Assembly: GCA_041653635.1 (NCBI GenBank)
Contig: JBAZFC010000001.1
Coordinates: 335,426-399,425, forward strand
Direction: 5' to 3'
Source: Candidatus Micrarchaeia archaeon
Lineage (GTDB): Archaea > Micrarchaeota > Micrarchaeia > Anstonellales > Bilamarchaeaceae
Length of the DNA stretch: 64,000 bases
Numbering within the stretch: the stretch's first letter is position 1; the number at the start of each line of letters is the position of its first letter. Below the pieces are notes generated by a model. That model was not told where the DNA came from and did not search any database. It was given only the letters and a program-made list of their open reading frames with translations. Positions 5,425-43,250 of the stretch are shown here, piece by piece. Position numbers and translations under genes: made by a program.

Positions 5425-5970
5425 ATGGTTGATTGCGACATCTGCGGAAGGAAAGGGGTTTCTTTCATAATAGCGGTGGAGGGCGCGAAGATGGCGGTGT
5501 GCCCCCGCTGCGCCTACCACGGGAAGATACTGCACTCTTTGGAGGGCGGGGAGGGCGAGCATGAGGAATCCCCAGCCAACAAGATTGATTATTCCACGCC
5601 AAAGCAATTCAGGACAGAAGAAGATATAGTGGATGGGTACGGGCGCAGGATTAGGAGGGCGCGGGAGGCCGTGAAGATTTCTTATGAGGAAGTGAATGAG
5701 TACGGGAAGAAGGAGAAGAAGACGCGCGGCATGACGATTGACGAGCTGGCGCGCAAGGCGAATGTGATGGCGTCCTGGCTGGACAGGGTGGAGAATGAGA
5801 GGATTTCGCCTACGATTGCGGAGGCGAAGAAATTGGAGAAGGCGCTTGGGATAAAATTGGTGGAGAAGATTGAGGTTTCGGTTACGCCTACGCTTAAACT
5901 GGGGGGAAGGAATACTGAGCTTACTTTGTTTGACATGGTTGAGATGCAGAAGAAAAAGAAGGAGAAATAA
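5425..5970 (+). CDS. MBF1-like transcriptional regulator (N-terminal zinc ribbon + C-terminal HTH XRE domain)
   Basis: CDICGRKG...CPRCAYHG zinc ribbon followed by TIDELARKANVMASWLDRVENERISPTIAEAKKLEKALGIKL helix-turn-helix; archaeal MBF1 architecture. Confidence 0.65.
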   Translation: MVDCDICGRKGVSFIIAVEGAKMAVCPRCAYHGKILHSLEGGEGEHEESPANKIDYSTPKQFRTEEDIVDGYGRRIRRAREAVKISYEEVNEYGKKEKKTRGMTIDELARKANVMASWLDRVENERISPTIAEAKKLEKALGIKLVEKIEVSVTPTLKLGGRNTELTLFDMVEMQKKKKEK

Positions 5971-7007: not shown

Positions 7008-7634
7008 TTAGATGTAGATTTTGAGGTATTTGGCTATTTTTCTCTTTAGTAAAGACGTCCTTTTTCCGACGATTTTTGCATTCTTCAGGGCCTTAAGCAG
7101 GGGCTTGGGCTGGAGCTGGTCTTCGGAAAGGTCTAATTCCGTATAAGTGGTCCCAAATTCGTAAGGGTAATGGGAATCGCTTCCCGCTGCCATTAGTTTC
7201 CCTTCCCTTTTGGCGAACTCTTCGGCTTTTTTGTCAAATCTCTCCAAAGAACGGGCGTTGAATACTTCTATTATGTCCGAAGCTTTTCCGTACTCTTCCT
7301 TCATTATTCCGGGGCGGAGCGCATCAAACATGTGCGGGGCGTAGGGAATTGCCCCCTGCGCGCGGAAGGAGTCGAGCGCCTCAAAGAAATCCACTCCCTT
7401 TTTCACCGGCTCATTTACGAAGAGTCCGATGAAGTCGCCCTGGGCGGTCTCTATCTCTTCCCCGGGAATAAAGGGGATACGGAATTTGCGGAATTCCGCG
7501 TGCGCACTTATGTTGTTGTGGTCTGTGATTGCTGGGATTACCCCTGTTTTTTTGGAGAGGGCGGCGAGCTGCCCGGGGGGTATCCTTCCGTCAGAAGAAT
7601 GGGAGGTATGCACGTGGAAGTCAATCCTTAGCAA
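7008..7634 (-). CDS. PHP-domain metal-dependent phosphoesterase
   Basis: N-terminal IDFHVHTSHSSDG motif typical of PHP (polymerase/histidinol phosphatase) domain; 208 aa. Confidence 0.7.
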   Translation of the reverse strand: MLRIDFHVHTSHSSDGRIPPGQLAALSKKTGVIPAITDHNNISAHAEFRKFRIPFIPGEEIETAQGDFIGLFVNEPVKKGVDFFEALDSFRAQGAIPYAPHMFDALRPGIMKEEYGKASDIIEVFNARSLERFDKKAEEFAKREGKLMAAGSDSHYPYEFGTTYTELDLSEDQLQPKPLLKALKNAKIVGKRTSLLKRKIAKYLKIYI

Positions 7635-27273: not shown

Positions 27274-28260
27274 GTGTTGATTATGAAGTGGATTGCATTT
27301 GGGTTGGTTCTTTTGCTTATGTTCGGCTGCACGCAGCCGGAAACCCCCGGGACGGGAACTGGAAACGGGACGCAGGGGACGGGAAGCCAGAACACGTCTG
27401 GCCACCTGATAATCGGCGAGGGCGAGGGTACGGTGGTGAGCGAGGGGAGCGCCGGGGAAACCGTGCCTGTTGTAAGATATACGGAAACCCCGAACTCTGA
27501 CATGTATGTGTATTTCTTCAATGTGGGGTATGGCGAGGAACAGGGGGATGCAATCCTCATAAAGAAGGGGGATGTGGACATACTCGTGGATGCCGGGCCC
27601 GTGGAGAAGAGGCAGGACCTGGTCACGATGCTGCTTGAGGCGGGCGTTGATGATTTTGAATTGGTGGTCTCAACCCACGACAACCCTGCGGAGACTGGCG
27701 GGCTGGAATATGTCTCAAACAGGTTCAGGTTCGGCGAGGTCTGGAGGCCGGAGGAGGGAAGCGACAACTACACGGCATACCTGAACTCGCTCGGAGCGGC
27801 GAGCGTCAGGACAGTGGGCGTGGGGGAGAGGAAGCAGATAAACGGGATAAACATAACCGTCCTCAACCCGATAGTCGGGCCTGGAAGGTTCTATGATGTC
27901 AATAACGACGGCATAGTGCTCAAGGTGGAGGACAGGGGCTTGTGCGTGCTATTGACCGGGGACATACTCGGCAGCCAGCAGACGGTCGCCCAGCTGAGCG
28001 GGCCGTGCCAGGTTGTGCAGTGGCCGAACCACGGGATAGGCGCAGGGCTCACAGAGATAAACTACTTCATTGACTACACCGACCCGGAAGTGATAGTGAT
28101 AAGCGGGAGCGCCACGGACTGGACTGATTCCAGGCAGTCCCTGATAAGCGCCGCGCACCTCGGAGGGGTGAGGAACATCACCGTGCTTGAGAATTACAAC
28201 GGGAAGAGCGTGAAGGTGGTGTGGAACGGAGCGAGATACACCGCCGCGGTGCAGCGCTAG
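27274..28260 (+). CDS. secreted lipoprotein with degenerate metallo-beta-lactamase (ComEC-like) fold
   Basis: Signal peptide/lipobox (LLLMFGC), Gly/Thr-rich linker, then DAILIKKGDVDILVDAG ... VVSTHDNPAETGGL pattern resembling the MBL ComEC-type domain but lacking the full HxHxDH motif. Confidence 0.5.
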   Translation: MLIMKWIAFGLVLLLMFGCTQPETPGTGTGNGTQGTGSQNTSGHLIIGEGEGTVVSEGSAGETVPVVRYTETPNSDMYVYFFNVGYGEEQGDAILIKKGDVDILVDAGPVEKRQDLVTMLLEAGVDDFELVVSTHDNPAETGGLEYVSNRFRFGEVWRPEEGSDNYTAYLNSLGAASVRTVGVGERKQINGINITVLNPIVGPGRFYDVNNDGIVLKVEDRGLCVLLTGDILGSQQTVAQLSGPCQVVQWPNHGIGAGLTEINYFIDYTDPEVIVISGSATDWTDSRQSLISAAHLGGVRNITVLENYNGKSVKVVWNGARYTAAVQR

Positions 28261-29972
28261 AACGGGCTGTCTGAGTCGTCAATGTTCGCGGCCGGGGCAT
28301 CCGGCAGCCTCGGCAGTATCGTCCTGGAAAGCCTGCCTGTGGCGAGGTCGTCCAGATGCTCGTCCACCAGGTTAGAGATTATCGGGTTCCTTATGCTGCG
28401 GAGCGATTCCAGCAAGTTCCGGTACCGGTCCGTATGTTCGTATGAGCTGAAGAGGCACAGTGCGAACACTTTCTTGAATGCCTCGCTGTCTTTATAGAGC
28501 CCTTCTGTGGGAGGCGCGGCGAAATCGTAGCGCTCCAGCGCGGTGAGGGCCATTTCACGGATGGGCTCGTTCCCGGACAGGAAATCCAGGCTTTCCAGGA
28601 TTGTCGTGAAGAGCTGTGTTATCTCCCTGGGCCTCCTGCCCACCGCATAGGCTGGCGCGCCGCTGCCTTCGGAGACGCCGTGCCTCATCTTCTGCGCGAC
28701 GAACTCGTGGAGCAGCCCGGCATTTTTCCAGATGGGGCTGTCGGCGCGGGTGCGCGTCCTGAGAATGAGGTAGAAGCTGCGGTCGTCAAGGTAGATGGGA
28801 TTATTGGCCTTGGCCCTATCCTGCGAGATGAGGCCGACATTCCTCGCGAGGGTGGAGCAATACTGCGCTATCTTCTGGTATTCCCCGGCTTCCTTGAGGA
28901 GTAACACGACGAACCGGGAAACGTCCTGCACGTTGAGCTTCCTGTCCATGGTGTCCTTCCTGAGCATCTCCTTGAGGTGCTCAAAGCCTGTGGAGACCCA
29001 CCTCTTTTCAATAAGGCGGTAGAGCATCGTGCGCACCTCTTCATCCCCGAGCACGTTCCTGGCCTTGTCGGTGCCGAGGCCGGCGGCTATGCCTACGCCG
29101 TCTGCGAGAGAAATTTCGCCCTTGTCCAGGAACCCGGAAAGGAGGCGCGGGTCCGTGCAGGCGCAGATGCACCATGCGCAGGCCCTGAGGAATCCGTTCC
29201 TCACGTCAAGTTCGCCCTTCGCCTCGCCCTCGGACGGCGGCGCGGTTGATAGGATGGAACGCACCAGGCGGGCCGTGAAATCCGCCGCTTCCTCTTCTGT
29301 CATGGCGCCCGCGGATTTCAGCTCACCGACCAGGCGCAGGAAATTGTCCGAAACCGTCGCGACCTGGCTGCCGACCTCCGATTCGTTGAGGTACGGCGCC
29401 CTGCCGCCTGAGCACACCATTCCGAGGCTGGATTCTCCGGGCGGGGCCTTCCTCAGGACCGAGAGACCGTCCATCGCGGATTCTATGAATGAATTGAGCA
29501 ACACCTCCTTTGCGGGGTGGTTGAGCCCGTTGAACCACACGTCCAGGCTTTTCTTTATGTCCGGAGTTTCCGGTTCCTTTCTTTTCAGCCTCATTCTCTG
29601 CTGCCAAGGAAACGGAAGGCCCATTTCGTCCCAGAGCATCTTATCTGTTATTGAGGAAGGGCGGGATGGGAGCCCGGTTGGAACTGAGCTTGCTGCCGTG
29701 GGCTGCGGCACCTGTTTGGGCCCCGGCTTTTTTTCCAGGCTAGCAAGATATTCTGAGAGCCGGGTAATCCTCCTCCCATGAGCCAGTGTGGAAGGCCTTT
29801 CTAGGGACCTGGGCGCAGGCGGTGCTGTGAGCGGGGCGGGCGGAGCCGGGGGCTGGAGGGTGGGGACGCGGGATTCAAGCCTCCTCCTGGCTGGCGCTAC
29901 GGGTTCTGGAGGAAGTATCAGCTTCCGTTGGCCCGGGGGCGAACTGCCCCCGTTCCCATTCTGGCCTGCCAT
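28257..29972 (-). CDS. hypothetical protein (~571 aa) with Pro-rich N-terminal region
   Basis: Track ORF extends to 30338 but would overlap glmM; start at MAGQNGNG (29972) is preceded by an AT-rich TATA-like stretch; no recognised domain. Confidence 0.45.
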   Translation of the reverse strand: MAGQNGNGGSSPPGQRKLILPPEPVAPARRRLESRVPTLQPPAPPAPLTAPPAPRSLERPSTLAHGRRITRLSEYLASLEKKPGPKQVPQPTAASSVPTGLPSRPSSITDKMLWDEMGLPFPWQQRMRLKRKEPETPDIKKSLDVWFNGLNHPAKEVLLNSFIESAMDGLSVLRKAPPGESSLGMVCSGGRAPYLNESEVGSQVATVSDNFLRLVGELKSAGAMTEEEAADFTARLVRSILSTAPPSEGEAKGELDVRNGFLRACAWCICACTDPRLLSGFLDKGEISLADGVGIAAGLGTDKARNVLGDEEVRTMLYRLIEKRWVSTGFEHLKEMLRKDTMDRKLNVQDVSRFVVLLLKEAGEYQKIAQYCSTLARNVGLISQDRAKANNPIYLDDRSFYLILRTRTRADSPIWKNAGLLHEFVAQKMRHGVSEGSGAPAYAVGRRPREITQLFTTILESLDFLSGNEPIREMALTALERYDFAAPPTEGLYKDSEAFKKVFALCLFSSYEHTDRYRNLLESLRSIRNPIISNLVDEHLDDLATGRLSRTILPRLPDAPAANIDDSDSPF

Positions 29973-30068
29973 AATTATTATATTAAGGCGGCGCAAGGTT
30001 TTTAAACGACACATAATTACACCAAGAAGCACAAACTTATCTTTAAATGGGCTTCTGGGGAAATTGGA

Positions 30069-31364
30069 TTGATGTTTGGCACTTCTGGTATCAGGGGAAT
30101 CTATGGAAAGGAGATTACTCCTGAGCTTGCGCTCCGGATGGCGAATGCTTTTGCTGAAACAGATGTTTGCATCGGGAGGGATACCCGGGAAAGCGGGGTT
30201 CCCCTTGCTTTTGCCGCGATGGGCGGGGTGCTTGGCTCCGGGCACGACGGAATTGGGCTGGGGATAGTGCCCACTCCGCTTGTTGCGTTTGGGACCATGA
30301 AATACGGCTGCGGAGGCATGATGGTTACCGCCTCCCATAATCCCGCGGAATATAACGGGCTCAAATTCATGAGGAAGGGGCGGGAGATAAGCCGCGCCGA
30401 GGAGAAGCGGGTGCTGGAGAGGTACGGGAGGGGGATGGAATACGGCGCGGAGCCGGGCGAGAGGAGAACGGAAAATGTAATTCCTGATTATATTGAGCTT
30501 GTGAAGAAGAACGTGGATACGAAATTGATTGGGAGGAAAAAACCGAAAGTGGTTGTGGATTGCAACGGGGCAGGCGCGGTGGTTACGCCGTATTTATTGC
30601 GGGAGCTTGGATGCCGTGTGGTATCCCTTAACTGCGAGCTTCGCGGCTTCAACAGGCCTTCGGAGCCGAACAAGGAAAATCTTTCGTGGCTTTCCTCCGC
30701 GGTCAGGGCATGCGGGGCGGATTTCGGGATTGCGCACGACGGGGATGCGGACAGGTGCGCGATTGTTGATGAGCGCGGCGAGCTTCTAAATGCAGACGTG
30801 CAGCTTGCGCTCATGATTGGGGAGGAATTGGCGCAAAAGAAGGGGAAAATCATAAGCTCAGTGGAGAGTTCGCTCATTGTGAAGGAAACGGTGGAGAGGA
30901 GCGGCGGGGAGTTCGTGCTTACTCCGGTTGGGAGCGTGCACGTGAGCGAGGAGATGGAGAAGAGCGGCGCGGTCTTCGGCGGGGAGCCGGCAGGGGAATA
31001 TGTGTTCAGGGGAGGGGTGCTTGTGCCGGATGGAGTTATGGCTGCGGCTAAGTATGTGGAACTATTTTGTGGGAAAGGGAAATTGAGTGCCCTGGCTTCC
31101 AGATTTAAAACAAATCCGATGGCTAGGGAGAAGTTCAGGACTGGGGACAGGAAGAAGGCGATGGAAAAGATAATGGGGACGCTCAGGCTGGACGGGAAAT
31201 TGAATAAGGACGACGGGATTAGGGTAGATGGGGGAGGGTATTGGGTGCTGGTTCGCCCTTCCGGGACGGAGAGCATCATCAGATTGACGGCGGAAGCCAA
31301 GACGAAGGAACTGCTGGACAAGGTTTGCGAAAAGGCGAGAAAGGCGATTAAGGAAGCTGTTTAG
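30069..31364 (+). CDS. glmM: phosphoglucosamine mutase / phosphohexomutase (archaeal GlmM-type)
   Basis: Active-site motif TASHNPAEYNG, metal-binding DGDADR, typical 4-domain length (431 aa). Confidence 0.85.
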   Translation: MMFGTSGIRGIYGKEITPELALRMANAFAETDVCIGRDTRESGVPLAFAAMGGVLGSGHDGIGLGIVPTPLVAFGTMKYGCGGMMVTASHNPAEYNGLKFMRKGREISRAEEKRVLERYGRGMEYGAEPGERRTENVIPDYIELVKKNVDTKLIGRKKPKVVVDCNGAGAVVTPYLLRELGCRVVSLNCELRGFNRPSEPNKENLSWLSSAVRACGADFGIAHDGDADRCAIVDERGELLNADVQLALMIGEELAQKKGKIISSVESSLIVKETVERSGGEFVLTPVGSVHVSEEMEKSGAVFGGEPAGEYVFRGGVLVPDGVMAAAKYVELFCGKGKLSALASRFKTNPMAREKFRTGDRKKAMEKIMGTLRLDGKLNKDDGIRVDGGGYWVLVRPSGTESIIRLTAEAKTKELLDKVCEKARKAIKEAV

Positions 31365-31418: not shown

Positions 31419-32645
31419 GTGGATGGGTTGAAAGCAGTAGTTCTAGCAGGCGGGGAAGGCGAAAGGATGCGCCCCATTACATATACGCGGCCAAAGGCGA
31501 TGCTGCAGGTGGCGGGGAAGCCGCTCATCTGGCACGTCCTGTCTAACCTGAAGAAGGCGCGGGTGAAAGAAGCAGTGGTGGTCGTGAAGTACAGGAAGGA
31601 GCAGATAATTGACTACTTATCTAAAGAGAACTTGGGGATGACGATAGAGTTCGCAGTGCAGGGCGAGAAGCACGGGACTGCCGCGGCGATTGAGGCGGCG
31701 AAAGGAAAGGCGGGCGAGGATTTCCTTGTCGTGGATGGGAATAATGTTTGCGATTCTGAGATTTACCGGGATGTGGTTGAGAAGCACGAGGGGGGCAAGA
31801 CGGTCGGGCTGAAGAAGGTGGACAATCCGCATGGATTTGGAATTGCGGAAGTGAAGAATGGTGTGCTTACGGGCATGGAGGAGAAGCCGGAGCATCCTAA
31901 GGGGAATTTAGCCAATATTTCTATTTATGCGTTCAATAAGGGGATTTTTGACGAGATTAAGAAATTGGCGCCGTCCCCGCGCGGGGAATATGAGATTACG
32001 GATGTGTTGAAAGGGGCGCACGTGGTGGAGACCGAGGACTTCTGGATGGATGTAGGATATCCGTGGCACCTATTTACGCTTAATGAGTATCTTCTTGGAA
32101 AAATGGAGGCGAACACGGGGCTGGTGGAAAATTCCACGGTAAAGGGGAAGCTCATAATGGAGGAGGGCGCGGAAGTTGTGGATAGTTTTGTGGAGGGCGC
32201 TTCGTACATTGGGGCGGGGACGAAAATAGGGCCGCATGCGCTCCTTCGCGGCTTCAATTCAATTGGAAGGAACTGCGAGATTGGGGAATCCACTACGGTG
32301 AAGAATAGCATTCTATTTGATGGGGTTAAGGCGAAACATTTGACTTATATTGGAGACAGCGTGGTCGGGGAGGGCGTGAATTTCGGCTCCGGGACGCAGG
32401 TTGCGAATTACAGGTTTGATTCCAGCCATGTGAATGTGCTCACGGAAAAGGGATGGGTGAATTCCGCTAGGAAGAAGCTAGGGGCGATAATCGGGGATGA
32501 GGCCAAGTTCGGGGTTCTCTCCTGCACCATGCCCGGAAAGATGATTGGGAACGGATGCTGGATAGGGAGCGGGGTCACGGTGAACACCAACCTGCGGCCA
32601 GGGCAGAAGATATTCCTCAAGAGCGAGCACACGGTAATAGGGTAG
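31419..32645 (+). CDS. bifunctional sugar-1-phosphate nucleotidylyltransferase / acetyltransferase (archaeal GlmU-like)
   Basis: N-terminal LAGGEGERMRP nucleotidyltransferase signature plus C-terminal hexapeptide-repeat (left-handed beta-helix) region. Confidence 0.8.
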   Translation: MDGLKAVVLAGGEGERMRPITYTRPKAMLQVAGKPLIWHVLSNLKKARVKEAVVVVKYRKEQIIDYLSKENLGMTIEFAVQGEKHGTAAAIEAAKGKAGEDFLVVDGNNVCDSEIYRDVVEKHEGGKTVGLKKVDNPHGFGIAEVKNGVLTGMEEKPEHPKGNLANISIYAFNKGIFDEIKKLAPSPRGEYEITDVLKGAHVVETEDFWMDVGYPWHLFTLNEYLLGKMEANTGLVENSTVKGKLIMEEGAEVVDSFVEGASYIGAGTKIGPHALLRGFNSIGRNCEIGESTTVKNSILFDGVKAKHLTYIGDSVVGEGVNFGSGTQVANYRFDSSHVNVLTEKGWVNSARKKLGAIIGDEAKFGVLSCTMPGKMIGNGCWIGSGVTVNTNLRPGQKIFLKSEHTVIG

Positions 32646-32653
32646 AAGGTGGG

Positions 32654-33394
32654 TTGATACAGCATCTTATCGTCGGAGTGGACCCGGGCGTATACACTGC
32701 TTTTGCGGCATTGAATTTGAAGGGGCAACTGGTCGCCTCTGGATGCGAGAAGGAGGCGAGCGACGAAAGGGTTGTGGAGATAATACGGCACGTGGGCGTG
32801 CCCTCCCTCATTGCGAGCGATGTGACTCCTCCTCCAAGCTTTGTGCAGAAGGTGGCGGCACGGTTCAACGTGCGGCTATCCTACCCTGTGCGGAGCCTTA
32901 CGCAGGAAGAGAAGAAAACCATGGGCGGGTTCATTGACGACGTGCACATACGGGATGCATACGGGGCGGCAATGAAAGCGTATCATATTTATGAGAACCG
33001 GCTAAGGCAGATTGAGGGCATGGATACTGCGCTGGACAAGGACTTATTGAAGCACATGGTGGTGCAGGGATACTCGCTGCATAATGCGGAATTGATGCTG
33101 ACCAGGAAGGAGGAGAAAAGAGTTGGCGCGGACGAAAAGAAGGAAGTGAAGAAGGAGAGTGGAGCGCAGAAGCGGGATGAACGGGTTGCACGGTTGGCAG
33201 AGGAGAATGTTAATTTGAGGAAGGCGTACGAATTGGAGAAGGTGAGGGCGGACGGGCTGGAAACGGAGCTGAAGCGTGCGAGGAATGCCAGGATTGGGGA
33301 AGTGGCGAGGGACTCTGAAGTTAGGCGGCTTAAGGGGCAGTTAGAGAGGGCTGAGAGGTATATATTTTTCCTTAAGAAGAAAAAGAAGGGCTAA
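32654..33394 (+). CDS. RNase H-like fold protein with C-terminal coiled coil (DUF460/COG2433-like)
   Basis: IVGVDPGVYTAFAAL N-terminus (RuvC/YqgF-like start), Lys/Glu-rich coiled coil at C-terminus; probable TTG start at 32654 just after the glmU stop (track ORF 32555 overlaps glmU). Confidence 0.5.
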   Translation: MIQHLIVGVDPGVYTAFAALNLKGQLVASGCEKEASDERVVEIIRHVGVPSLIASDVTPPPSFVQKVAARFNVRLSYPVRSLTQEEKKTMGGFIDDVHIRDAYGAAMKAYHIYENRLRQIEGMDTALDKDLLKHMVVQGYSLHNAELMLTRKEEKRVGADEKKEVKKESGAQKRDERVARLAEENVNLRKAYELEKVRADGLETELKRARNARIGEVARDSEVRRLKGQLERAERYIFFLKKKKKG

Positions 33395-33795
33395 AGCATC
33401 TGCGGAATATCCTGTGCGTTCAATCCCAGATGCATGAATTGCAATTCGGTGAGGGAAACCCATCTTCCCTCCTCGTGCTCCAAACCAAGCTCGTATTTGT
33501 CGGAACTGAGTTCGCCTTTATAGACGATGTAGATGGAGTGCTTTTCTATCCCGTCCTTGTCATAAGTGGCGGAGGTTATGCCCACCAATTTGACGGAATG
33601 GGGGGTGAGCTGGATTTCCTCCCTGCATTCGCGTATTGCGGCGGTGTAGGGGTCCTCCCCCCAGTCCACGCCTCCGCCGGGGAATTCCCAGATGCTGGAG
33701 CCGCGGCGGCGCACTACCAGGAATTTGCCCTGAAAGGATGGGACTAGGTAAGCGTTTATTTCTTGTATTCGCTTATCGTGCTTCTCCTTCCCCAT
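33391..33795 (-). CDS. NUDIX hydrolase
   Basis: Nudix box GGGVDWGEDPYTAAIRECREEIQL. Confidence 0.85.
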   Translation of the reverse strand: MGKEKHDKRIQEINAYLVPSFQGKFLVVRRRGSSIWEFPGGGVDWGEDPYTAAIRECREEIQLTPHSVKLVGITSATYDKDGIEKHSIYIVYKGELSSDKYELGLEHEEGRWVSLTELQFMHLGLNAQDIPQML

Positions 33796-33837
33796 GGGTA
33801 TGGATTGGAGGGAAAGGGATTAAATGATGAGGGAAAC

Positions 33838-34632
33838 TTAGATTGTCCTCTTGGGCACGCGTGGGAACAGGTCCTTCGCCGCGTTCTCGTCCACGAATTC
33901 CAGCGCCTTGTTGCAGAGCGGGCAGCGGAAGGAATAATCTGAAGCTGCGGCGAACTCATACATGCTCTCTGTGCCGCATTTCGGGCAGAAATAGTATTCC
34001 GAGCTTGAGATGTCGCCAGGGGCGGCTTCCTTCAATATCTGCTCCTCCACCCAGCTCTTGGTCTTCTCCATGTTGAGGGACCAGAAATATGAGAACCAGC
34101 CCGTTTCCGCGTCCTTGTAGCGGTTGTACTGGACTATGCCCAGGTTATGGAGGCGGTTGAGCGTGGCGCGCACGTCGCTTATCTTTATCTTGAGCTTCTT
34201 TGCGAGATCGTCGTCAGAGAGTTCCTTGGTGAAAGCGCGCATTATGTCAAGGGCGCTCTCGCCCCCGGAATCCACGAGCATCTGGCGCACGCGCGAATTG
34301 GAAAGGACCGCGTCCAGCTCGGCGTTGAGCTTCGGCTCCGGCGCCTTCTTGGGCATCTTGGGGGACGGCACTGGCTTCTTGAGCCTCGCCTTCACGCCGC
34401 CAATCTTTGGCTTGGACCAGGACTTCACCTGCCTTGCCCTTGAGGAGCTTGCCTTTGCTTTTGAGAACCTTGACCTTGCATTGAGGGGCTTTGCCTTGGA
34501 GAGCCTTGCCCTTGATGGCCTCGCCGCGGCCTTGCGGCTGGAAATAGATTTTTTTGGCTTAGAAACCCTGAGATTCCTTCTGCTGGAGGTCTTTTTTCCC
34601 TTAGAAGGACGGCTGGCCCTTGCTGCCATCAT
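33838..34632 (-). CDS. tfe: transcription factor E (TFE/TFIIE-alpha homolog) with Lys/Arg/Ser-rich N-terminal extension
   Basis: Winged-helix region (residues ~105-190) plus zinc ribbon CPKCG...CPLCN; TATA-like element upstream of ATG at 34632 supports the long form with ~95-aa basic extension. Confidence 0.65.
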   Translation of the reverse strand: MMAARASRPSKGKKTSSRRNLRVSKPKKSISSRKAAARPSRARLSKAKPLNARSRFSKAKASSSRARQVKSWSKPKIGGVKARLKKPVPSPKMPKKAPEPKLNAELDAVLSNSRVRQMLVDSGGESALDIMRAFTKELSDDDLAKKLKIKISDVRATLNRLHNLGIVQYNRYKDAETGWFSYFWSLNMEKTKSWVEEQILKEAAPGDISSSEYYFCPKCGTESMYEFAAASDYSFRCPLCNKALEFVDENAAKDLFPRVPKRTI

Positions 34633-34775
34633 ATCACTTCTATACCTACGCTGAAGTTGTATTTAAAGCTATTGGGGCGCCGACGGTGGGCGACGGCGGC
34701 TGAAGCAGGCTTGCTGGGGTGGGCGGCGGAAACCGGAACCCAGGCAGGCATAAGCTTTTTAGCGCCGGAAGCGAT

Positions 34776-35972
34776 ATGGGATTGATGAGGCCGGACCACT
34801 ATTGCCACATATGCAAGGGCACCCGGAAGATGTGCGGGCTGGACTACTGCCCGCTCCTCAGCAAGCTTGCCGCCATGAGGAGGGGCGCTGAGAGCCTGGG
34901 GAAGAAAACAGTTTTTGGGGGGAGCGCGGAAGTATTTGTCGGGAGTTTCGGGTATCCGTCCGTTTCGTGGGGGCCGGTGGTGCCCCTGCAGGAGTATGCG
35001 GGCGAGCGGGACATATACGAGATGGGGTATGAGAAGATAATAGAACACAGAGTGAATGCGGTGCGCGGGAAGAGGTATGGGGGCATACGGCCCGTGGGGA
35101 AAATCGCTGATGAGACGCAGGATGTGGCGATGAGCGTGCGGCCCGTGGATGTGGAGATGCGGTTTTCCAAGGAGCCGGTTTTTGACATGAAGTTCTCGTC
35201 CGTGGCGCAGCCGATTGGGGCTTCCGGGACGATGAAGGACGTGCGGCTGTGCGAGAACCCTAAAATCCCGAAGAAAGCGGATGAACTATTGCAGGAAAAG
35301 GCGCGGGCGCGGGAGATTGTCACGGAGATGTTTGAGACCGGTTTGGATAATTATTACATTACGAAGGTTTTGTCAGCTGGATTGCTGGGGATGAAAGAAG
35401 ACAGGAAGATGGTGCCCACACGGTGGAGCATCACGGCGACGGACGACATGCTGGGGAAGCACTTGATGGGCAGGGTGCGGGAGTATCCAGAAGTGTCGGA
35501 CTTCTATGTGCTGAGCCATGAATCCCTGTCCAATCATTTTGAGATTCTCGTGATGCCCGGAAAATGGGAGTTTGAGAATTTTGAGGCGTGGTCGCCGGGC
35601 ACGATTTGGACGATGGGCGGCTCGGATTTCCGTGTGAGCGAGGAGCACGAGCTGTTTGAGGGGAGGACCACTTATGCGGATGCGCAGGCAGGGGGGTATT
35701 ATGCGGTTCGGATTGGAGTGCTGGAGTTTCTGGACAGGATAAGGAAGCAGGCGCGGGTGATGTCCATACGGGAAATTTATGAGGGCTACCAGGTGCCGGT
35801 GGGCGTGTTCCAGGTGAGGGAGAATGTGAGGGATGCGACGCTGAGCGTGAGGAAGTATTCTTCACTTTCCGAGGCGCTTGCTTCCATGGGGAGCAGGCTC
35901 CGGAAGGGGATTTCGGCGTATGCGGAAAGGAGCAAAATCCTCACGCAAAGAAGGCTTGATGAGTTTTTCTAG
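34776..35972 (+). CDS. Nre-family (archaeal DNA-repair-associated) protein, tentative
   Basis: ~400-aa ORF with N-terminal Cys cluster (CHICKG...CGLDYCP); family assignment from pattern memory; start uncertain (track ORF from 34719). Confidence 0.4.
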   Translation: MGLMRPDHYCHICKGTRKMCGLDYCPLLSKLAAMRRGAESLGKKTVFGGSAEVFVGSFGYPSVSWGPVVPLQEYAGERDIYEMGYEKIIEHRVNAVRGKRYGGIRPVGKIADETQDVAMSVRPVDVEMRFSKEPVFDMKFSSVAQPIGASGTMKDVRLCENPKIPKKADELLQEKARAREIVTEMFETGLDNYYITKVLSAGLLGMKEDRKMVPTRWSITATDDMLGKHLMGRVREYPEVSDFYVLSHESLSNHFEILVMPGKWEFENFEAWSPGTIWTMGGSDFRVSEEHELFEGRTTYADAQAGGYYAVRIGVLEFLDRIRKQARVMSIREIYEGYQVPVGVFQVRENVRDATLSVRKYSSLSEALASMGSRLRKGISAYAERSKILTQRRLDEFF

Positions 35973-38989: not shown

Positions 38990-39490
38990 TCAGGGCGTCT
39001 TCTTTAGGCGGTCTTTCTTCACATTCCCCTTAGTGGTTTCCGCCGGGATTCCGATAGGCAGGATGCAGACCGGCCTGCCTTGTTCTTGGAATATCCCCTT
39101 CACCTCTTCATCACTGAACGCACCCACCCATACCGCGCCGAGGCCGAGGTCCGTGGCCGCCAATTGCGCATAGCCCGCGGCGAGGGATGCGTCTATTATG
39201 CAGAATAAATTTCCCCGTTCCCCGTATTTCTTTGAGGAAGACGCCGCATCCGCGAAGAAGACGAACACTGCCGGGGCATCGGAAATGAAACCCTGGTTGA
39301 AGGCGGCCTTTGCGAGCTTTTCCTTAGTTTCTTTTTCAGTAACCAGATAGAAATGGTAGCTCTGCAGGTTGCCTGCGGACGGGGCTAGGTTGGCTGCATC
39401 CTTAATTGTGTCTAGCTGCTTCTGCGCGAGGGGCGAGGGCCTAAACAGCCGCGTGCTCTTCCTTTCCCTTATGAGTTTTTGGAATTCCAT
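38990..39490 (-). CDS. nitroreductase family protein
   Basis: 166 aa; N-terminal RERKSTRLF motif and overall nitroreductase-like pattern. Confidence 0.75.
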   Translation of the reverse strand: MEFQKLIRERKSTRLFRPSPLAQKQLDTIKDAANLAPSAGNLQSYHFYLVTEKETKEKLAKAAFNQGFISDAPAVFVFFADAASSSKKYGERGNLFCIIDASLAAGYAQLAATDLGLGAVWVGAFSDEEVKGIFQEQGRPVCILPIGIPAETTKGNVKKDRLKKTP

Positions 39491-39542
39491 GGCTAAACCG
39501 CCAGCATCAAACTATTTAATCGTTTCACCACATATCAATACT

Positions 39543-42500
39543 ATGAACAAGCACCTGATTTTGCTATTTGCTATTTTTGCAGTGGTTGCCATCCAGGCGG
39601 CTTTTGCCGAAGCGCAGACGAGCTATCCGCGCACATGGGAGGATAGCGGATGGGTTGCGAACAACGAGCACATAATGGACCTGGGCTTCTTTGAGATTTG
39701 GTATAGTGTAGAGCCAACAAACAACATCAGCAGGATGGATGTATTGGGGATCATGCTTCCATTCCATGAAAGCTTAGAAGAGGCGGAGCTTGAGCAACTG
39801 TTGCCGGAATGCCACGGCATCGGCTGCAACTCAAGCTCGGAGCTTGAGAGTGCGTTGCGGCATAAGGAATATGCTGATGGCTTGCTGGATTTCGTACGCA
39901 TCGGAAGCGCCGCATCTACATCCCACCCGGCGTATGACGTCGCTTACGAATGGTACCTAATGCACTATGTGGGGGACTGGAAGGATGCCATGGATTGTTC
40001 ACTACGTGCCGTGGAGAAGGAGGGCGCGGAAGTAAACGGCAGGAGGCTCGCTGTAGAGGCGACTATGGAGGAAGTGGCTAGTTCTGGCATATGTGAATCT
40101 AGGTATTCCGGCCCCGCGAACTGGATATGTTATGCGACTGTGGATGATGTGAGGTGCAACAGCAGCGGGCTGGATGATTCAATCCCTGACATGACCTGGT
40201 ACCCGGCATGCATGAGGACGCATTGGGAAACCGAAACGGTGCTTGGGGAGAAGAACGCCAACATGACCGAAAGCTGGGAGGGGGCGCAGGCAAAACTATC
40301 CGAGCTTGAGGCGTATGCCCTAGACTCCAGGGCGCAGGCGACTGTGCTCATTGACTTGATGACTGCGACAGAACTTGATGGGATAACTGTAAGCGCGGAA
40401 ACCAGCGACATCGGTGGGGTTGCGAGCATAAGTGACGAGTATGCGATCATAAAAAAGGAATATGAAAACGGGAATAAAGCAATGGGGGGTGCGGACACAC
40501 AAGCGAACAGCAGGTCGGATGGATGGTATAAGAAAAAATATGACTCTTATTGGGTGGCTGCCACATATTACGACGACATAGTTGTGAATGGCGCTTTGCT
40601 GTTGGAGGACGCGGAAGCGGTCGTGGCGGATTTTGGAGGTGAGGCGCATGCCGCACTGGCACAGGCGCAGCGCAGCACGAGACTGACCGAGGCGGGGCAG
40701 GCACATCTGGTTGAAGCGGAAATTGCATGCAATTTTGCGGACGCGGAAACAAAGCTCGGCGTCCGGTTCGAGCAATACGGGTCGTGTAGGATGCACGCGC
40801 GGCTTGCGCTGGACGGCACGGACATAGAACAGGCTGCTGAATATGAGGCAGCCGTGCTAGAAGTTGAAAAGCTTATCCAAAATGCGACAACTGATGGGAT
40901 AGACACACGTAATGAGCAGGCGCTCTTCACCATTGTAAAGAACATGAAACCCACAGACGCGGTGGAGATTCTCTCAAGAATCAAATCCAGCATACTCGGA
41001 AAGGCAAGGGTGCTGTATGGGGGCCTGCCTGGAGAAAGGGAAGATGCGAAAGCGCTCATAGAGGGTGGGGGTAGCAGCTTCGCTTACATGAATTCCTGGC
41101 TGGAGAGGGAGGATTGCTATTCGGGAAACGACCTTGATTATGATTGCGCAATCGGTAGCCTGAAGATGATGCACAACGGGTACATGAACATTTTCAATGC
41201 GACCGCCGCCCGGGCTGGTGAAGTGGTGGGCAACGCGATGCTGGTTGATTATTATGAGACTACTACCGCCGCCAGCCTTGACGAAGACAGCGAATACACC
41301 TTGGTTGTGCGGGCCAGAAATACCCTGCCGATGGGAGCGGAGAATGCAGTCATATCAGTTCCAGCCGGCGCGGAGATAGGGAAGATGGACCTTGTTGATG
41401 GAGGCGAGCGCGTGAGGACCGTAGCGTACCAGGACGGGGTCGCGACCATACAGCTTGTGCAGGTTTCGGCTGGAGAAGAAGTGGTGCTTGAATTCAAGAA
41501 AGGGTACCGTCCCTGCGTCGCGTCTGGCATCCGCACCAGCGCGGTCGGGGATGCAATAGGCGGCGCAAAGGTGAGCAGGCAGATGAGCCTTGCCTGTTCA
41601 ATGCAGGTGAACTCAATCAATGTTGGTTCGGGTTTTGATTCTGCGGTGCTGGACGGCACGGCCCACGCAGTCACGGACGGAATACTCAAGGCAAGGATAA
41701 CAAAAGGGACGCATTCCCTGGGCATCGTTGAGCATGTTGCAGACGCGTACGGAATGGACAAGAGCACTGAGTTGGTGACTACAGCCGGGACGATGACGAC
41801 AGTTGCATATATGATAGACATCTCTCCAAAAATGGACCTGGACATGGTTCCAGTATGGGTGGATGAGAGTGGCAAGAGCCCTAGATCTATAGATGTTTTT
41901 GGCTATACTGGGGAGCAAATCAAGAATGTGAAGAAGGACGGTACTGGGGTAGTCTATTTTGAGATAAACGGCTTAGAAGCGGACAAGCTGGCTAAGGTGC
42001 GGGTGAGGTACGAATTCTCCAATATCAGCAGCTATGTTGGGGATAGGATTGATGAGTTGGAGGGTGTGAATATGGGCGGCGAGGCGAGGGCGCTCCTGGG
42101 CAATGCGTCAAACCTTTATGCAGCAGGCGATTACGCAGGTGCCCTGGCTGCGCTGCAGAGCACCGAATCCCAGATTGAGAAAGACGCGAAAGCTGCCGTA
42201 AAGGTGGCTGCGAAGGATAGTGAATTGAGAGCAGAAATTTCAGAGAAGGCGGCAGAACTGCGGGGTGCAATCAACATCGGCGAGGATAATGGTGTGGGTA
42301 GCCAATACCTCCCAGAGATGCGTGCAAGGCTCAGTGTATTGGAAGGCGCGCTTGCACAGAACCTGAGTGTGGGAGCGACCTCCAGCCCGCTTGAGGATGT
42401 GGATTTGGGATGGGAAGGAAAAGAAATAACCAAGATACAGAAATATGTCAAGGACAACGAGGCGAAGATAAAAAAGGATTGGATGGCGATTGGTGTTGAT

Positions 42501-43250
42501 GACGCAAACCTGAGCAGCGCCATTTCAGGGCTTGAGGCACAGGGTGCCGTGTTCTCTGGCACTATGACGCTAGAGGATGGAATGCTCGCACTTGCCGCGC
42601 TGGAAAATGCACAGGATGCGCTTGATGCCCTTAAGGTGAGGGAAGGGGCAAAGGATGCGGTAGAGCGTTCAGCACTATCCAATCTTATAGCCGGAGCCAA
42701 TAGTGTGCTTTCCGAATACGAGGATGAGTATTCAGACCTGCCGTCTGGAGACAGCATGCTCTCGCTCTTTGAAAAGAAGCCGAATGAGATAAAGACGCGG
42801 CTGACGGCACTGAACCGCAGCACCAATACTGATGCCGCAATGGTGGAGGCGGCGCAGCTTAAGGCGGACATGGAGAGCGTGCTCGGTTTCCTTAATGGGG
42901 AAGGGCTGCGAATGATTGCTTCTGCCACTGACCTTTACACCGAATCAAAGGCTACGCTGGGGGAGGATGAAAAACAGGATGTGGAAAACTCCCTGGAAAT
43001 GGCCAACGATTACCTTGACAGCGGCAGATTTGTGAAATCCATCCTGGCAAGCGAGAACACAATCAGCAAGTTGAATGGTGCGGAGTCGGTGGATAACGGG
43101 TTACTTGTTCTTGCCCTCACTGCGCTCCTAGTTATTGGTGCCGTGGCGCTATTGCTATTCCGGAAAGGCAATGTTTGGCCATCAGGAAGTGGTAGGAACA
43201 AACCGAGTTTGAGGAAGCTGAAGAAAATTGAGGTTGATGAATTCGACTGA
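39543..43250 (+). CDS. large cell-surface protein (~1235 aa), signal peptide + C-terminal TM anchor; possible S-layer/adhesin
   Basis: Start at MNKHLILLFAIFAVVAIQAAFA (track ORF from 39369 overlaps the nitroreductase gene); C-terminal hydrophobic helix LLVLALTALLVIGAVALLLF followed by basic tail; many N-glycosylation sequons. Confidence 0.6.
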   Translation: MNKHLILLFAIFAVVAIQAAFAEAQTSYPRTWEDSGWVANNEHIMDLGFFEIWYSVEPTNNISRMDVLGIMLPFHESLEEAELEQLLPECHGIGCNSSSELESALRHKEYADGLLDFVRIGSAASTSHPAYDVAYEWYLMHYVGDWKDAMDCSLRAVEKEGAEVNGRRLAVEATMEEVASSGICESRYSGPANWICYATVDDVRCNSSGLDDSIPDMTWYPACMRTHWETETVLGEKNANMTESWEGAQAKLSELEAYALDSRAQATVLIDLMTATELDGITVSAETSDIGGVASISDEYAIIKKEYENGNKAMGGADTQANSRSDGWYKKKYDSYWVAATYYDDIVVNGALLLEDAEAVVADFGGEAHAALAQAQRSTRLTEAGQAHLVEAEIACNFADAETKLGVRFEQYGSCRMHARLALDGTDIEQAAEYEAAVLEVEKLIQNATTDGIDTRNEQALFTIVKNMKPTDAVEILSRIKSSILGKARVLYGGLPGEREDAKALIEGGGSSFAYMNSWLEREDCYSGNDLDYDCAIGSLKMMHNGYMNIFNATAARAGEVVGNAMLVDYYETTTAASLDEDSEYTLVVRARNTLPMGAENAVISVPAGAEIGKMDLVDGGERVRTVAYQDGVATIQLVQVSAGEEVVLEFKKGYRPCVASGIRTSAVGDAIGGAKVSRQMSLACSMQVNSINVGSGFDSAVLDGTAHAVTDGILKARITKGTHSLGIVEHVADAYGMDKSTELVTTAGTMTTVAYMIDISPKMDLDMVPVWVDESGKSPRSIDVFGYTGEQIKNVKKDGTGVVYFEINGLEADKLAKVRVRYEFSNISSYVGDRIDELEGVNMGGEARALLGNASNLYAAGDYAGALAALQSTESQIEKDAKAAVKVAAKDSELRAEISEKAAELRGAINIGEDNGVGSQYLPEMRARLSVLEGALAQNLSVGATSSPLEDVDLGWEGKEITKIQKYVKDNEAKIKKDWMAIGVDDANLSSAISGLEAQGAVFSGTMTLEDGMLALAALENAQDALDALKVREGAKDAVERSALSNLIAGANSVLSEYEDEYSDLPSGDSMLSLFEKKPNEIKTRLTALNRSTNTDAAMVEAAQLKADMESVLGFLNGEGLRMIASATDLYTESKATLGEDEKQDVENSLEMANDYLDSGRFVKSILASENTISKLNGAESVDNGLLVLALTALLVIGAVALLLFRKGNVWPSGSGRNKPSLRKLKKIEVDEFD

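What the first reader, a model, noticed from the sequence alone, without database searches (positions are those of the whole stretch)
33838..34632. TFE with a ~95-residue Lys/Arg/Ser-rich N-terminal extension
The winged-helix and zinc-ribbon core of TFE starts near residue 105, but the promoter-like element lies upstream of the ATG at 34632, implying translation of a highly basic low-complexity extension. Typical archaeal TFE-alpha is ~170-180 aa. Such a tail could mediate nucleic-acid or chromatin interaction, or the real start could be the internal Met at ~34356.
Basis: partly seen in the sequence, partly recalled or inferred. Interest (0 to 1): 0.45.

Follow-up and report, generated by a model that had tools for sequence, protein, structure and literature searches.

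The report
Micrarchaeota TFE with polycationic N-terminal tail
The archaeal general transcription factor TFE encoded here really does start about 105 residues early with a disordered, strongly positively charged tail, and this tail occurs on TFE across the whole Micrarchaeota phylum, so it is a lineage-wide, apparently undescribed variant of a well-known factor rather than an annotation error.

Summary
ORF 33838..34632 (-) encodes 264 aa. A canonical TFE-alpha core (extended winged helix plus 4-Cys zinc ribbon) starts near residue 102-106. Before it lie about 104 residues with 34% K+R, one acidic residue, net charge +34 and predicted disorder.

The long start is supported.
- A perfect TTTAAATA lies 35 nt upstream of ATG 34632.
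- The N-terminus and several tail motifs are conserved in relatives.
- All indels are in frame.
- Tail dN/dS is 0.23-0.39, against 0.05-0.11 for the core.
- The internal Met (34356) is CTG, CTT, AAG or CCN in relatives.

The window is from a Micrarchaeia MAG. All 77 usable species-level Micrarchaeota loci carry such a tail: 49-255 aa, K+R 25-50%, across 27-61% GC. A perfect TATA box lies upstream of the tail in 69 of 77 loci and inside it in only one. These TFEs also lack the usual C-terminal tail. Some Woesearchaeota/Nanoarchaeia TFEs carry K-rich tails at the C-terminus or N-terminus instead.

Function is inferred, not shown. [quoted passage not shown] I found no paper describing this. Verdict: real, a new variant of a known factor, moderate interest.

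The parts
33838..34632 (-). Complete TFE-alpha gene, 264 codons plus stop (33838..33840)
   Evidence: ORF list and sequence. It is 100% identical to P0001, MAG 'Candidatus Micrarchaeia archaeon' WC350_02015.
34321..34632 (-). N-terminal polycationic extension, aa 1-104, predicted disordered
   Evidence: K+R 34%, one acidic residue, net +34, pI 12. AF2 gives pLDDT 40-53 and no secondary structure for residues 1-101. dN/dS is 0.23-0.39. A tail is present in 77 of 77 Micrarchaeota loci.
34591..34632 (-). Conserved N-terminal motif MMAARASRPSKGKK (M2, S10, K11 and K13 invariant in the clade)
   Evidence: Alignment A1 of 21 homologues at 60-100% identity.
34405..34434 (-). Conserved tail motif RQVKSWSKPK with invariant Trp72
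   Evidence: The pattern [VI][KR]xW[SPR][KR] occurs in 29 clade members. W72 is invariant.
34432..34518 (-). Degenerate tandem repeat inside the tail (period 36 nt = 12 aa, 2.4 copies); it coincides with an insertion specific to the closest relatives
   Evidence: TRF score 91, 74% matches. The insertion is visible in alignment columns 55-90.
34354..34356 (-).
   Evidence: The aligned codon is CTG (L001), CTT (L002), AAG (L003) and CCC/CCG in others. The upstream 20 nt 'agccagtgccgtcccccaag' holds no SD-like motif.
34033..34320 (-). Extended winged-helix domain of TFE-alpha (aa 105-200)
   Evidence: Pfam PF02002 covers aa 123-197. AF2 helices H102-164 and strands E167-186 have pLDDT 72-89. PDB matches are 6kf4_G, 6pln_A and 1q1h_A.
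33892..33999 (-). Zinc ribbon (aa 212-247) with Cys216, Cys219, Cys237 and Cys240
   Evidence: The four Cys are invariant in 74 homologues. The region aligns to the zinc-ribbon domains of T. kodakarensis and P. furiosus TFE.
34660..34667 (-). TATA box TTTAAATA, 35 nt upstream of ATG 34632; implies a very short (about 5 nt) leader
   Evidence: Perfect TTTAWATA match. It is conserved at -35 in L001, L003, L005-L007, at -38 in L002 and at -30 in L004. The TATA-to-TSS spacing of about 26-28 nt is from established knowledge of archaeal promoters.

Best explanation
This is the single-subunit archaeal initiation factor TFE-alpha of a Micrarchaeon. It is translated from ATG 34632 as a 264-aa protein.

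Shown here: a canonical core (extended winged helix plus zinc ribbon) is preceded by a ~104-residue, intrinsically disordered, polycationic tail. The tail is part of the protein. It is under purifying selection that mainly preserves positive charge, plus a few short motifs. It is a phylum-wide trait of Micrarchaeota TFE, and these TFEs lack the usual C-terminal tail.

Inferred: the tail acts as a non-sequence-specific nucleic-acid anchor. [quoted passage not shown] A +34 tail attached to its N-terminus can therefore reach upstream or bubble DNA. This would raise TFE's local concentration on DNA and stabilise the pre-initiation and open complex electrostatically. Lys-rich wings of TFE-beta/TFIIE-beta and the accessory factors CarD/RbpA are thought to act in a similar way.

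Tail length evolves quickly by in-frame slippage, seen here as a 12-aa degenerate repeat, while charge density is maintained.
For: Translation of the tail:
- A conserved TATA lies 35 nt upstream of the long ORF's ATG in close relatives.
- A perfect TATA lies within -70..+30 of the first in-frame start in 69 of 77 loci, and inside the tail-coding region in only 1 of 77. Background is 0.32 per kb.
- The frame is open for at least 49 codons upstream of the core in 77 of 77 loci.
- Tail dN/dS is 0.23-0.39, against 0.05-0.11 for the core. The sense frame is lowest or tied-lowest of six.
- Invariant tail residues include W72.
- Met93 is not conserved.

Charge is the selected property:
- K+R is 25-50% and net charge +9 to +105 in all 77 tails.
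- The Arg share of basic residues follows genomic GC (rho 0.72, p 2e-13). Tail length does not correlate with GC (rho 0.02) over 27-61% GC.
- The core is near neutral, median net charge -1.

Disorder: AF2 gives pLDDT 40-53 and no secondary structure for residues 1-101.

Gene specificity: none of the roughly 60 other genes in the window has a comparable tail.

Recurrence: Woesearchaeota/Nanoarchaeia TFEs carry K-rich tails at the C-terminus, or sometimes the N-terminus or both.

Geometry from the literature: the eWH (residues 5-86 in Pfu) contacts the non-template strand where the bubble starts (PMC7704642; PMC13502027).
Against: - No experimental evidence exists for DNA binding or for any effect on transcription.
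- The tail could equally bind RNA or an acidic protein surface.
- Purifying selection is weaker than on the core.
- The antisense -1 frame shows similarly low dN/dS in one pair (0.29 against 0.30), as expected for a shadow frame.
- The exact start is uncertain in some distant loci, where TATA lies at -8 to -14 or at -50 to -67 from the first start codon.
- NCBIfam equivalog cut-offs for TFE are not reached (101 against 180 bits), so the core is divergent.
- Whether Micrarchaeota lack TFE-beta or other chromatin proteins was not tested.
Confidence: 0.6

Rival explanations
1. Annotation artefact. Translation really starts at the internal Met93 (34356), or at another internal codon, giving a canonical ~172-aa TFE. 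On this view the upstream open frame is untranslated leader.
For: Canonical TFEs are 165-195 aa. Met93 lies 12 residues before the core. Low-complexity sequence tends to stay open by chance.
Against: - Met93 is CTG, CTT, AAG or CCN in the seven closest species, and no SD-like sequence precedes it.
- There is no TATA-like element of 6/8 or better inside the tail-coding region of the window.
- The TATA box lies 35 nt upstream of the long ATG and is conserved.
- The N-terminal residues are conserved.
- Sense-frame dN/dS is 0.3.
- The frame is open in 77 of 77 species over 27-61% GC.
Confidence: 0.03
2. The tail is translated, but its target is not DNA. It could bind RNA (nascent transcript or ribosome). 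Alternatively it could dock on an acidic protein surface, for example on RNAP or on a partner specific to these symbionts, through short linear motifs such as the Trp72 motif or the clade-B 'KSIARKAIRKAVAKR' helix.
For: Short motifs are conserved within otherwise fast-evolving sequence: W72 is invariant, and the clade-B motif occurs in 30 proteins and is predicted as a short helix. Polycationic IDRs bind RNA as readily as DNA (general knowledge).
Against: The motifs are clade-specific, not phylum-wide, whereas charge density is universal. The tail is attached to the domain that lies on promoter DNA (PMC7704642). No partner is identified.
Confidence: 0.2
3. The tail is a largely neutral by-product of replication slippage and weak selection in small symbiont populations. 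It is tolerated on TFE but has no specific role.
For: There is a degenerate tandem repeat in the tail. Tail length varies greatly, 49-255 aa, with many indels even among close relatives. dN/dS is 4-7 times higher than in the core.
Against: - The tail is retained in 77 of 77 species-level lineages.
- Charge density is maintained under opposite mutational biases (K in AT-rich genomes, R in GC-rich ones).
- dN/dS is well below 1, and there are invariant residues.
- Other genes in the same window do not accumulate such tails.
- Tails were gained independently on TFE in other DPANN lineages.
Confidence: 0.12

Closest known systems
Canonical archaeal TFE-alpha (e.g. T. kodakarensis 6KF4/6KF9, P. furiosus 6PLN, S. 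solfataricus 1Q1H)
   Same: Both have the extended winged helix followed by a 4-Cys zinc ribbon. The sequence match runs over aa 112-258, with a Pfam PF02002 hit above the gathering score.
   Different: About 105 extra N-terminal residues of polycationic disordered sequence. The protein ends 6-15 residues after the zinc ribbon, whereas Tko and Pfu TFE have about 35 further residues. It scores below the NCBIfam equivalog cut-offs.
K-rich C-terminal tails of Woesearchaeota/Nanoarchaeia TFE
   Same: The same factor carries the same kind of lysine-rich low-complexity appendage of very variable length (20-150 aa).
   Different: The tail is at the opposite terminus and is present only in a subset of that lineage; most members are ~167 aa and untailed. 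In Micrarchaeota the tail is N-terminal and universal in the sample.
TFE-beta / TFIIE-beta (Lys-rich wing and basic region) and mycobacterial CarD/RbpA
   Same: [quoted passage not shown]
   Different: There is no homology. The tail has no winged helix and no FeS-cluster cysteines, is disordered, and is fused in cis to TFE-alpha rather than being a separate subunit.
Histone-H1-like Lys/Ala/Pro-rich tails of prokaryotic DNA-binding proteins (Chlamydia Hc1, mycobacterial HupB, actinobacterial TopA) and Lys-rich N-terminal tails of Asgard histones
   Same: Both are polycationic, disordered, compositionally conserved but sequence-variable tails attached to a folded DNA-binding domain (my own knowledge; Asgard histone tails in bioRxiv 10.64898/2026.07.02.735847).
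   Different: The carrier here is a general transcription initiation factor, not a chromatin protein or topoisomerase. The window's tail is also rich in Ser and Arg and lacks regular PAKK/KAAK tetrapeptide repeats.

Membership tests
Archaeal TFE-alpha (TFIIE-alpha N-terminal homologue) | Extended winged-helix domain (Pfam PF02002 TFIIE_alpha) | tested here: met
   PF02002 covers aa 123-197, 54.1 bits against a gathering score of 22.9. AF2 gives a winged-helix fold at pLDDT 72-89. PDB TFE chains match at E 1e-19 to 3e-10.
Archaeal TFE-alpha (TFIIE-alpha N-terminal homologue) | C-terminal zinc ribbon with four Cys | tested here: met
   C216, C219, C237 and C240 are invariant in 74 homologues and align to the Tko and Pfu zinc-ribbon domains.
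Archaeal TFE-alpha (TFIIE-alpha N-terminal homologue) | Score above NCBIfam equivalog cut-off (PRK06266 / TIGR00373) | tested here: not met
   101 bits against 180, and 83.5 against 149.5. These are still the best hits by far. The shortfall reflects divergence of the DPANN sequence and the missing C-terminal region, not a different family.
Archaeal TFE-alpha (TFIIE-alpha N-terminal homologue) | Binds RNAP clamp/stalk and stimulates open-complex formation | not testable with these tools
   This needs biochemistry.
Archaeal TFE-alpha (TFIIE-alpha N-terminal homologue) | Canonical length and termini (starts within about 10 residues of the winged helix; about 20-35 aa C-terminal tail) | tested here: not met
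   About 105 residues precede the core, and only 6-15 follow the aligned zinc ribbon.
TFE-beta / TFIIE-beta-like module | Winged helix and Cys-rich FeS domain | tested here: not met
   The tail has no Cys, no Pfam or NCBIfam domain other than a low-complexity match at E 0.44, and no predicted structure.
Histone-H1-like K/A/P-rich DNA-binding tails | Polycationic low-complexity composition | tested here: met
   K+R 34%, A 14%, P 11%, one acidic residue. The pooled composition of 77 tails is K 29%, A 11.5%, P 7%.
Histone-H1-like K/A/P-rich DNA-binding tails | Regular short peptide repeats (PAKK/KAAK type) | tested here: not met
   Only one degenerate 12-aa repeat of 2.4 copies.
Histone-H1-like K/A/P-rich DNA-binding tails | Non-specific DNA binding / compaction | not testable with these tools
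   This needs EMSA or similar.

The most novel reading that the evidence does not exclude
In Micrarchaeota the general factor TFE-alpha has been rebuilt. It lost the C-terminal tail, which in Sulfolobus mediates TFE-beta binding. It gained a polycationic N-terminal IDR that replaces in cis the DNA-contacting role of TFE-beta, and/or makes TFE a nucleoid-bound, chromatin-like protein. The repeated, independent gain of such tails at either end of TFE in other DPANN lineages would then mark a general adaptation of the basal transcription machinery in genome-reduced symbiotic archaea.
Probability: 0.3. Interest if true: 0.65.

Novelty: new variant of a known kind. Interest (0 to 1): 0.5.

Why it matters
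TFE/TFIIE is a universal archaeal-eukaryotic initiation factor whose domain plan is considered very stable. A phylum-wide fusion of a long polycationic disordered tail to its DNA-proximal domain, together with loss of the usual C-terminal tail and parallel tail gains in other DPANN, suggests a lineage-specific solution to open-complex stabilisation or factor recruitment in ultra-small symbionts.

It gives a simple, testable case of how disordered basic tails tune a general transcription factor: full-length against tail-deleted protein, or the tail grafted onto Pyrococcus or Methanocaldococcus TFE.

Practically, it shows that the long gene models for Micrarchaeota TFE are correct and should not be trimmed to the internal Met.

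Tried and rejected
- Pfam and NCBIfam gave nothing for the tail itself. The only hit was a low-complexity match to DNA pol III gamma/tau at E 0.44.
- The sigma-70 promoter and intrinsic-terminator scan is not applicable to an archaeon and found nothing relevant.
- The antisense ORF 34124..34654 (+) was considered as a real gene and rejected. It starts inside the TFE core, which has dN/dS 0.05 in the sense frame. It occupies the wobble-sharing shadow frame. The sense frame has the lowest or tied-lowest dN/dS.
- The idea that basic tails are a genome-wide habit of this organism was rejected for this window. Of about 60 genes only TFE has one, and ThrRS, PheRS-beta, a helicase, aIF2-alpha and GINS have none.
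- The idea that the tail is a by-product of AT-rich poly-A slippage was rejected. It persists at 55-61% GC with Arg replacing Lys.
- Five literature searches on Micrarchaeota/DPANN with TFE, and on lysine-rich extensions, found no description of this feature. The TFE/TFIIE review PMC7616663 is not held.
- The listing of cluster members gave taxon names for only 2 of 10 tailed representatives. The taxonomic spread outside Micrarchaeota is therefore only partly resolved.
- I could not check whether the genome has a second, untailed TFE or a TFE-beta.

Full report
**What is there**

The minus-strand ORF 33838..34632 encodes 264 aa beginning MMAARASRPSKGKK. The TFE core is mapped consistently by four methods:
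- Pfam TFIIE_alpha covers aa 123-197 at E 1.6e-14, above the gathering score.
- NCBIfam TFE-alpha model PRK06266, positions 8-159 of 185, aligns to aa 106-250.
- In solved structures, T. kodakarensis TFE (6kf4_G) residue 6 aligns to query 112, and P. furiosus TFE (6pln_A) residue 8 to query 113.
- In an AlphaFold2 model built on 21 homologues, the first helix starts at residue 102 and the core has pLDDT 72-89. Residues 1-101 have no secondary structure and pLDDT 40-53.

So about 101-105 residues precede the canonical N-terminus. Residues 1-104 contain K21, S18, A15, R14, P11 and a single acidic residue, giving net charge +34 and pI 12. The core has net charge -3 and pI 5.3. The extension is a little longer than the stated 95 residues.

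**Where the window comes from**

The protein is 100% identical to a hypothetical protein of a 'Candidatus Micrarchaeia archaeon' MAG on a 1.03-Mb contig. The neighbours are ordinary archaeal housekeeping genes:
- NUDIX hydrolase, 42 nt downstream on the same strand;
- a divergent Nre gene, and DUF460;
- ThrRS with the archaeal editing domain, PheRS-beta, aIF2-alpha, L44e, GINS, ThyX and FGAM synthase.

**Which start codon is used**

Five lines of comparative evidence favour ATG 34632.
1. **Promoter in the window.** A perfect TTTAAATA lies at 34667..34660, 35 nt upstream of the ATG. It is one of two perfect TTTAWATA matches on this strand in 64 kb. Nothing scoring 6/8 or better lies within the tail-coding region. 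With the usual archaeal TATA-to-TSS spacing this predicts a leader of about 5 nt.
2. **Promoter in relatives.** In seven species at 59-86% protein identity, the block 'TTTAAATAcaac.tc.gcgtaggtatagaagtg.tATGATGGC' is conserved at the same distance from the ATG. Across 77 species-level Micrarchaeota loci, 69 have a perfect TATA within -70..+30 of the first in-frame start of the long ORF. Only one has a perfect TATA inside the tail region. In that locus, L014, the first ATG lies upstream of the TATA and the likely true start is the later MPKKQMKKK. Background frequency is 0.32 per kb.
3. **Conserved tail residues.** In 21 homologues at 60-100% identity, M2, S10, K11, K13, R33 and W72 are invariant. 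The motif (Q/H)(V/I)(K/R)xW(S/P)(K/R) is conserved.
4. **Selection on the coding frame.** All length differences are in frame. Nei-Gojobori dN/dS of the tail is 0.23-0.39 in eight pairs, against 0.05-0.11 for the core. In six-frame tests on six pairs, the sense frame is lowest in five. In the sixth it ties with the wobble-sharing antisense shadow frame, 0.30 against 0.29.
5. **The internal Met is not conserved.** Met93 (34356..34354) aligns to CTG, CTT, AAG or CCN in the relatives. No Shine-Dalgarno-like sequence precedes it.

The alternative start is therefore very unlikely. The 176-aa antisense ORF 34124..34654 is a shadow ORF.

**How widespread the tail is**

A scan of one genome per GTDB species returned 80 loci, all labelled Micrarchaeota, Micrarchaeia, ainarchaeum or Bilamarchaeaceae. 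Three loci ran off a contig edge, leaving 77 usable. In all 77:
- the frame is open for at least 49 codons upstream of the core (median 96, maximum 255);
- K+R is 25-50% and net charge is +9 to +105.

Locus GC ranges from 27 to 61%. The Arg share of basic residues follows GC (Spearman 0.72, p 2e-13). Tail length does not (rho 0.02). The core stays near neutral. What is conserved is charge, not sequence.

An exhaustive HMM search of 1.84 billion cluster representatives found 1151 TFEs at E<=1e-3. Of the best 146 usable hits:
- 98 have an N-terminal basic tail (median 84 aa, net +29.5);
- 12 have a C-terminal basic tail;
- 1 has both;
- 35 have none (median length 174 aa).

N-tailed proteins with a different core signature include TFE of 'Ca. 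Gugararchaeum adminiculabundum' and other Micrarchaeia. The trait therefore spans several orders of the phylum.

Micrarchaeota TFEs also end 0-16 residues after the zinc ribbon. Tko and Pfu TFE have about 35 more residues, and Woesearchaeota TFEs have a C-terminal helix.

In Woesearchaeota/Nanoarchaeia most TFEs are untailed at about 167 aa (79 of 112). A subset carries C-terminal K-rich tails of 20-150 aa, and a few carry N-terminal tails, e.g. P0219. Basic tails on TFE therefore recur in DPANN, but only in Micrarchaeota are they N-terminal and apparently universal.

**Specificity**

In this window only TFE, out of about 60 genes, has a long basic tail. It is not a genome-wide compositional habit.

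**Fine structure of the tail**

A degenerate 36-nt (12-aa) tandem repeat at 34432..34518 coincides with an insertion specific to the closest relatives. This points to in-frame slippage as the source of length variation. Another large Micrarchaeota clade has a conserved 'L(K/R)KS(I/V/A)ARKA(I/V)RKAVAKR' motif in 30 proteins. It is predicted as a short helix at low confidence. Short motifs are thus embedded in a compositionally constrained disordered region.

**Mechanism (inferred)**

Structural and cross-linking work places the TFE-alpha winged helix on the tip of the RNAP clamp. It touches the non-template strand where the bubble begins, and the C-terminal tail is disordered (PMC7704642; PMC13502027). 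In Sulfolobus the C-terminal tail of TFE-alpha is needed to bind TFE-beta. The Lys-rich wing of TFE-beta is proposed to contact the non-template strand electrostatically, and loss of TFE-beta is suggested to be compensated by changes in TFE-alpha (PMC4495717).

A +34 disordered tail on the N-terminus of the winged helix is well placed to bind upstream or bubble DNA non-specifically. It could tether TFE to DNA and stabilise the pre-initiation or open complex. This is my preferred explanation, at about 0.55 for the functional part and above 0.9 for 'real, translated, conserved'.

The rivals are:
- an RNA or acidic-protein target, acting through the conserved motifs (0.2);
- a nearly neutral slippage product (0.12), which is hard to reconcile with universal retention, charge maintenance under opposite mutational bias and dN/dS of about 0.3;
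- an annotation artefact (0.03).

**Comparison with what is known, and novelty**

The protein is a TFE-alpha: the winged helix and the 4-Cys zinc ribbon are both present. It is divergent (below the NCBIfam equivalog cut-offs) and has atypical termini. The tail is not homologous to TFE-beta/TFIIE-beta. It resembles H1-like K/A/P tails in composition but lacks regular repeats.

Five full-text searches found no paper describing basic tails on Micrarchaeota or DPANN TFE. One DPANN survey merely notes that TBP, TFB and TFE are present.

I rate it a new variant of a known kind, of moderate interest (0.5). It is real and phylum-wide, and it gives a clean experimental handle on how a disordered polycationic tail modulates a universal initiation factor. 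Its function remains untested.

Noticed in passing
window 34633-34718 (TATA at 34660-34667): The 86-nt gap between TFE (-) and the divergent Nre DNA-repair-like gene 34719..35972 (+) holds a single near-palindromic TATA box (TTTAAATA / TATTTAAA). It could serve both genes as a bidirectional promoter.
   Followed up: no
window 34124-34654 (+): A 176-aa antisense ORF overlaps the TFE tail and part of the core. It stays open in all seven close relatives. It lies in the wobble-sharing shadow frame and shows no better conservation than the sense frame.
   Followed up: yes
proteins P0093-P0098, P0138, P0166, P0183, P0219, P0233, P0325, P0337 (not in window): Woesearchaeota/Nanoarchaeia TFEs are mostly about 167 aa. 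A subset carries lysine-rich C-terminal tails of up to about 150 aa, a few carry N-terminal tails, and P0183 has tails at both ends. This suggests repeated independent gains of basic tails on TFE in DPANN.
   Followed up: partly
proteins P0027-P0053, loci L009-L016 (tail residues ~33-75): A second Micrarchaeota clade has a strongly conserved motif L(K/R)KS(I/V/A)ARKA(I/V)RKAVAKR inside the otherwise variable tail (30 proteins). It is predicted as a short helix at low pLDDT in P0030.
   Followed up: partly
window 34432-34518: A degenerate 36-nt (12-aa) tandem repeat, 2.4 copies, lies inside the tail. It coincides with an insertion found only in the closest relatives, pointing to slippage-driven length change.
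   Followed up: partly
loci L034 and L048: One MAG (JBDRIM01, isolate MEGAHIT-group-1.587) has two TFE loci on different contigs, both with basic tails of 73 and 77 aa. They could be paralogues or a mixture of strains in the bin.
   Followed up: no
window 32555-33394 (+), 5425-5970 (+), 7008-7634 (-): Several unrelated proteins end in short basic stretches: DUF460 (...KKKKKG), an HTH_3/MBF1-like protein (...QKKKKEK), and a PHP-domain protein (last 30 aa net +10). These are far shorter than the TFE tail.
   Followed up: no
window 39369-43250 (+) and 28257-30338 (-): Two large ORFs (1293 aa and 693 aa) have no Pfam match at E<=1e-5.
   Followed up: no
window 33796-33837: Only 42 nt separate the TFE stop from the downstream NUDIX gene (33391..33795, -). 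A weak TATA-like 'CATTTAAT' lies about 24-31 nt before its ATG, so co-transcription with TFE or a separate weak promoter are both possible.
   Followed up: no
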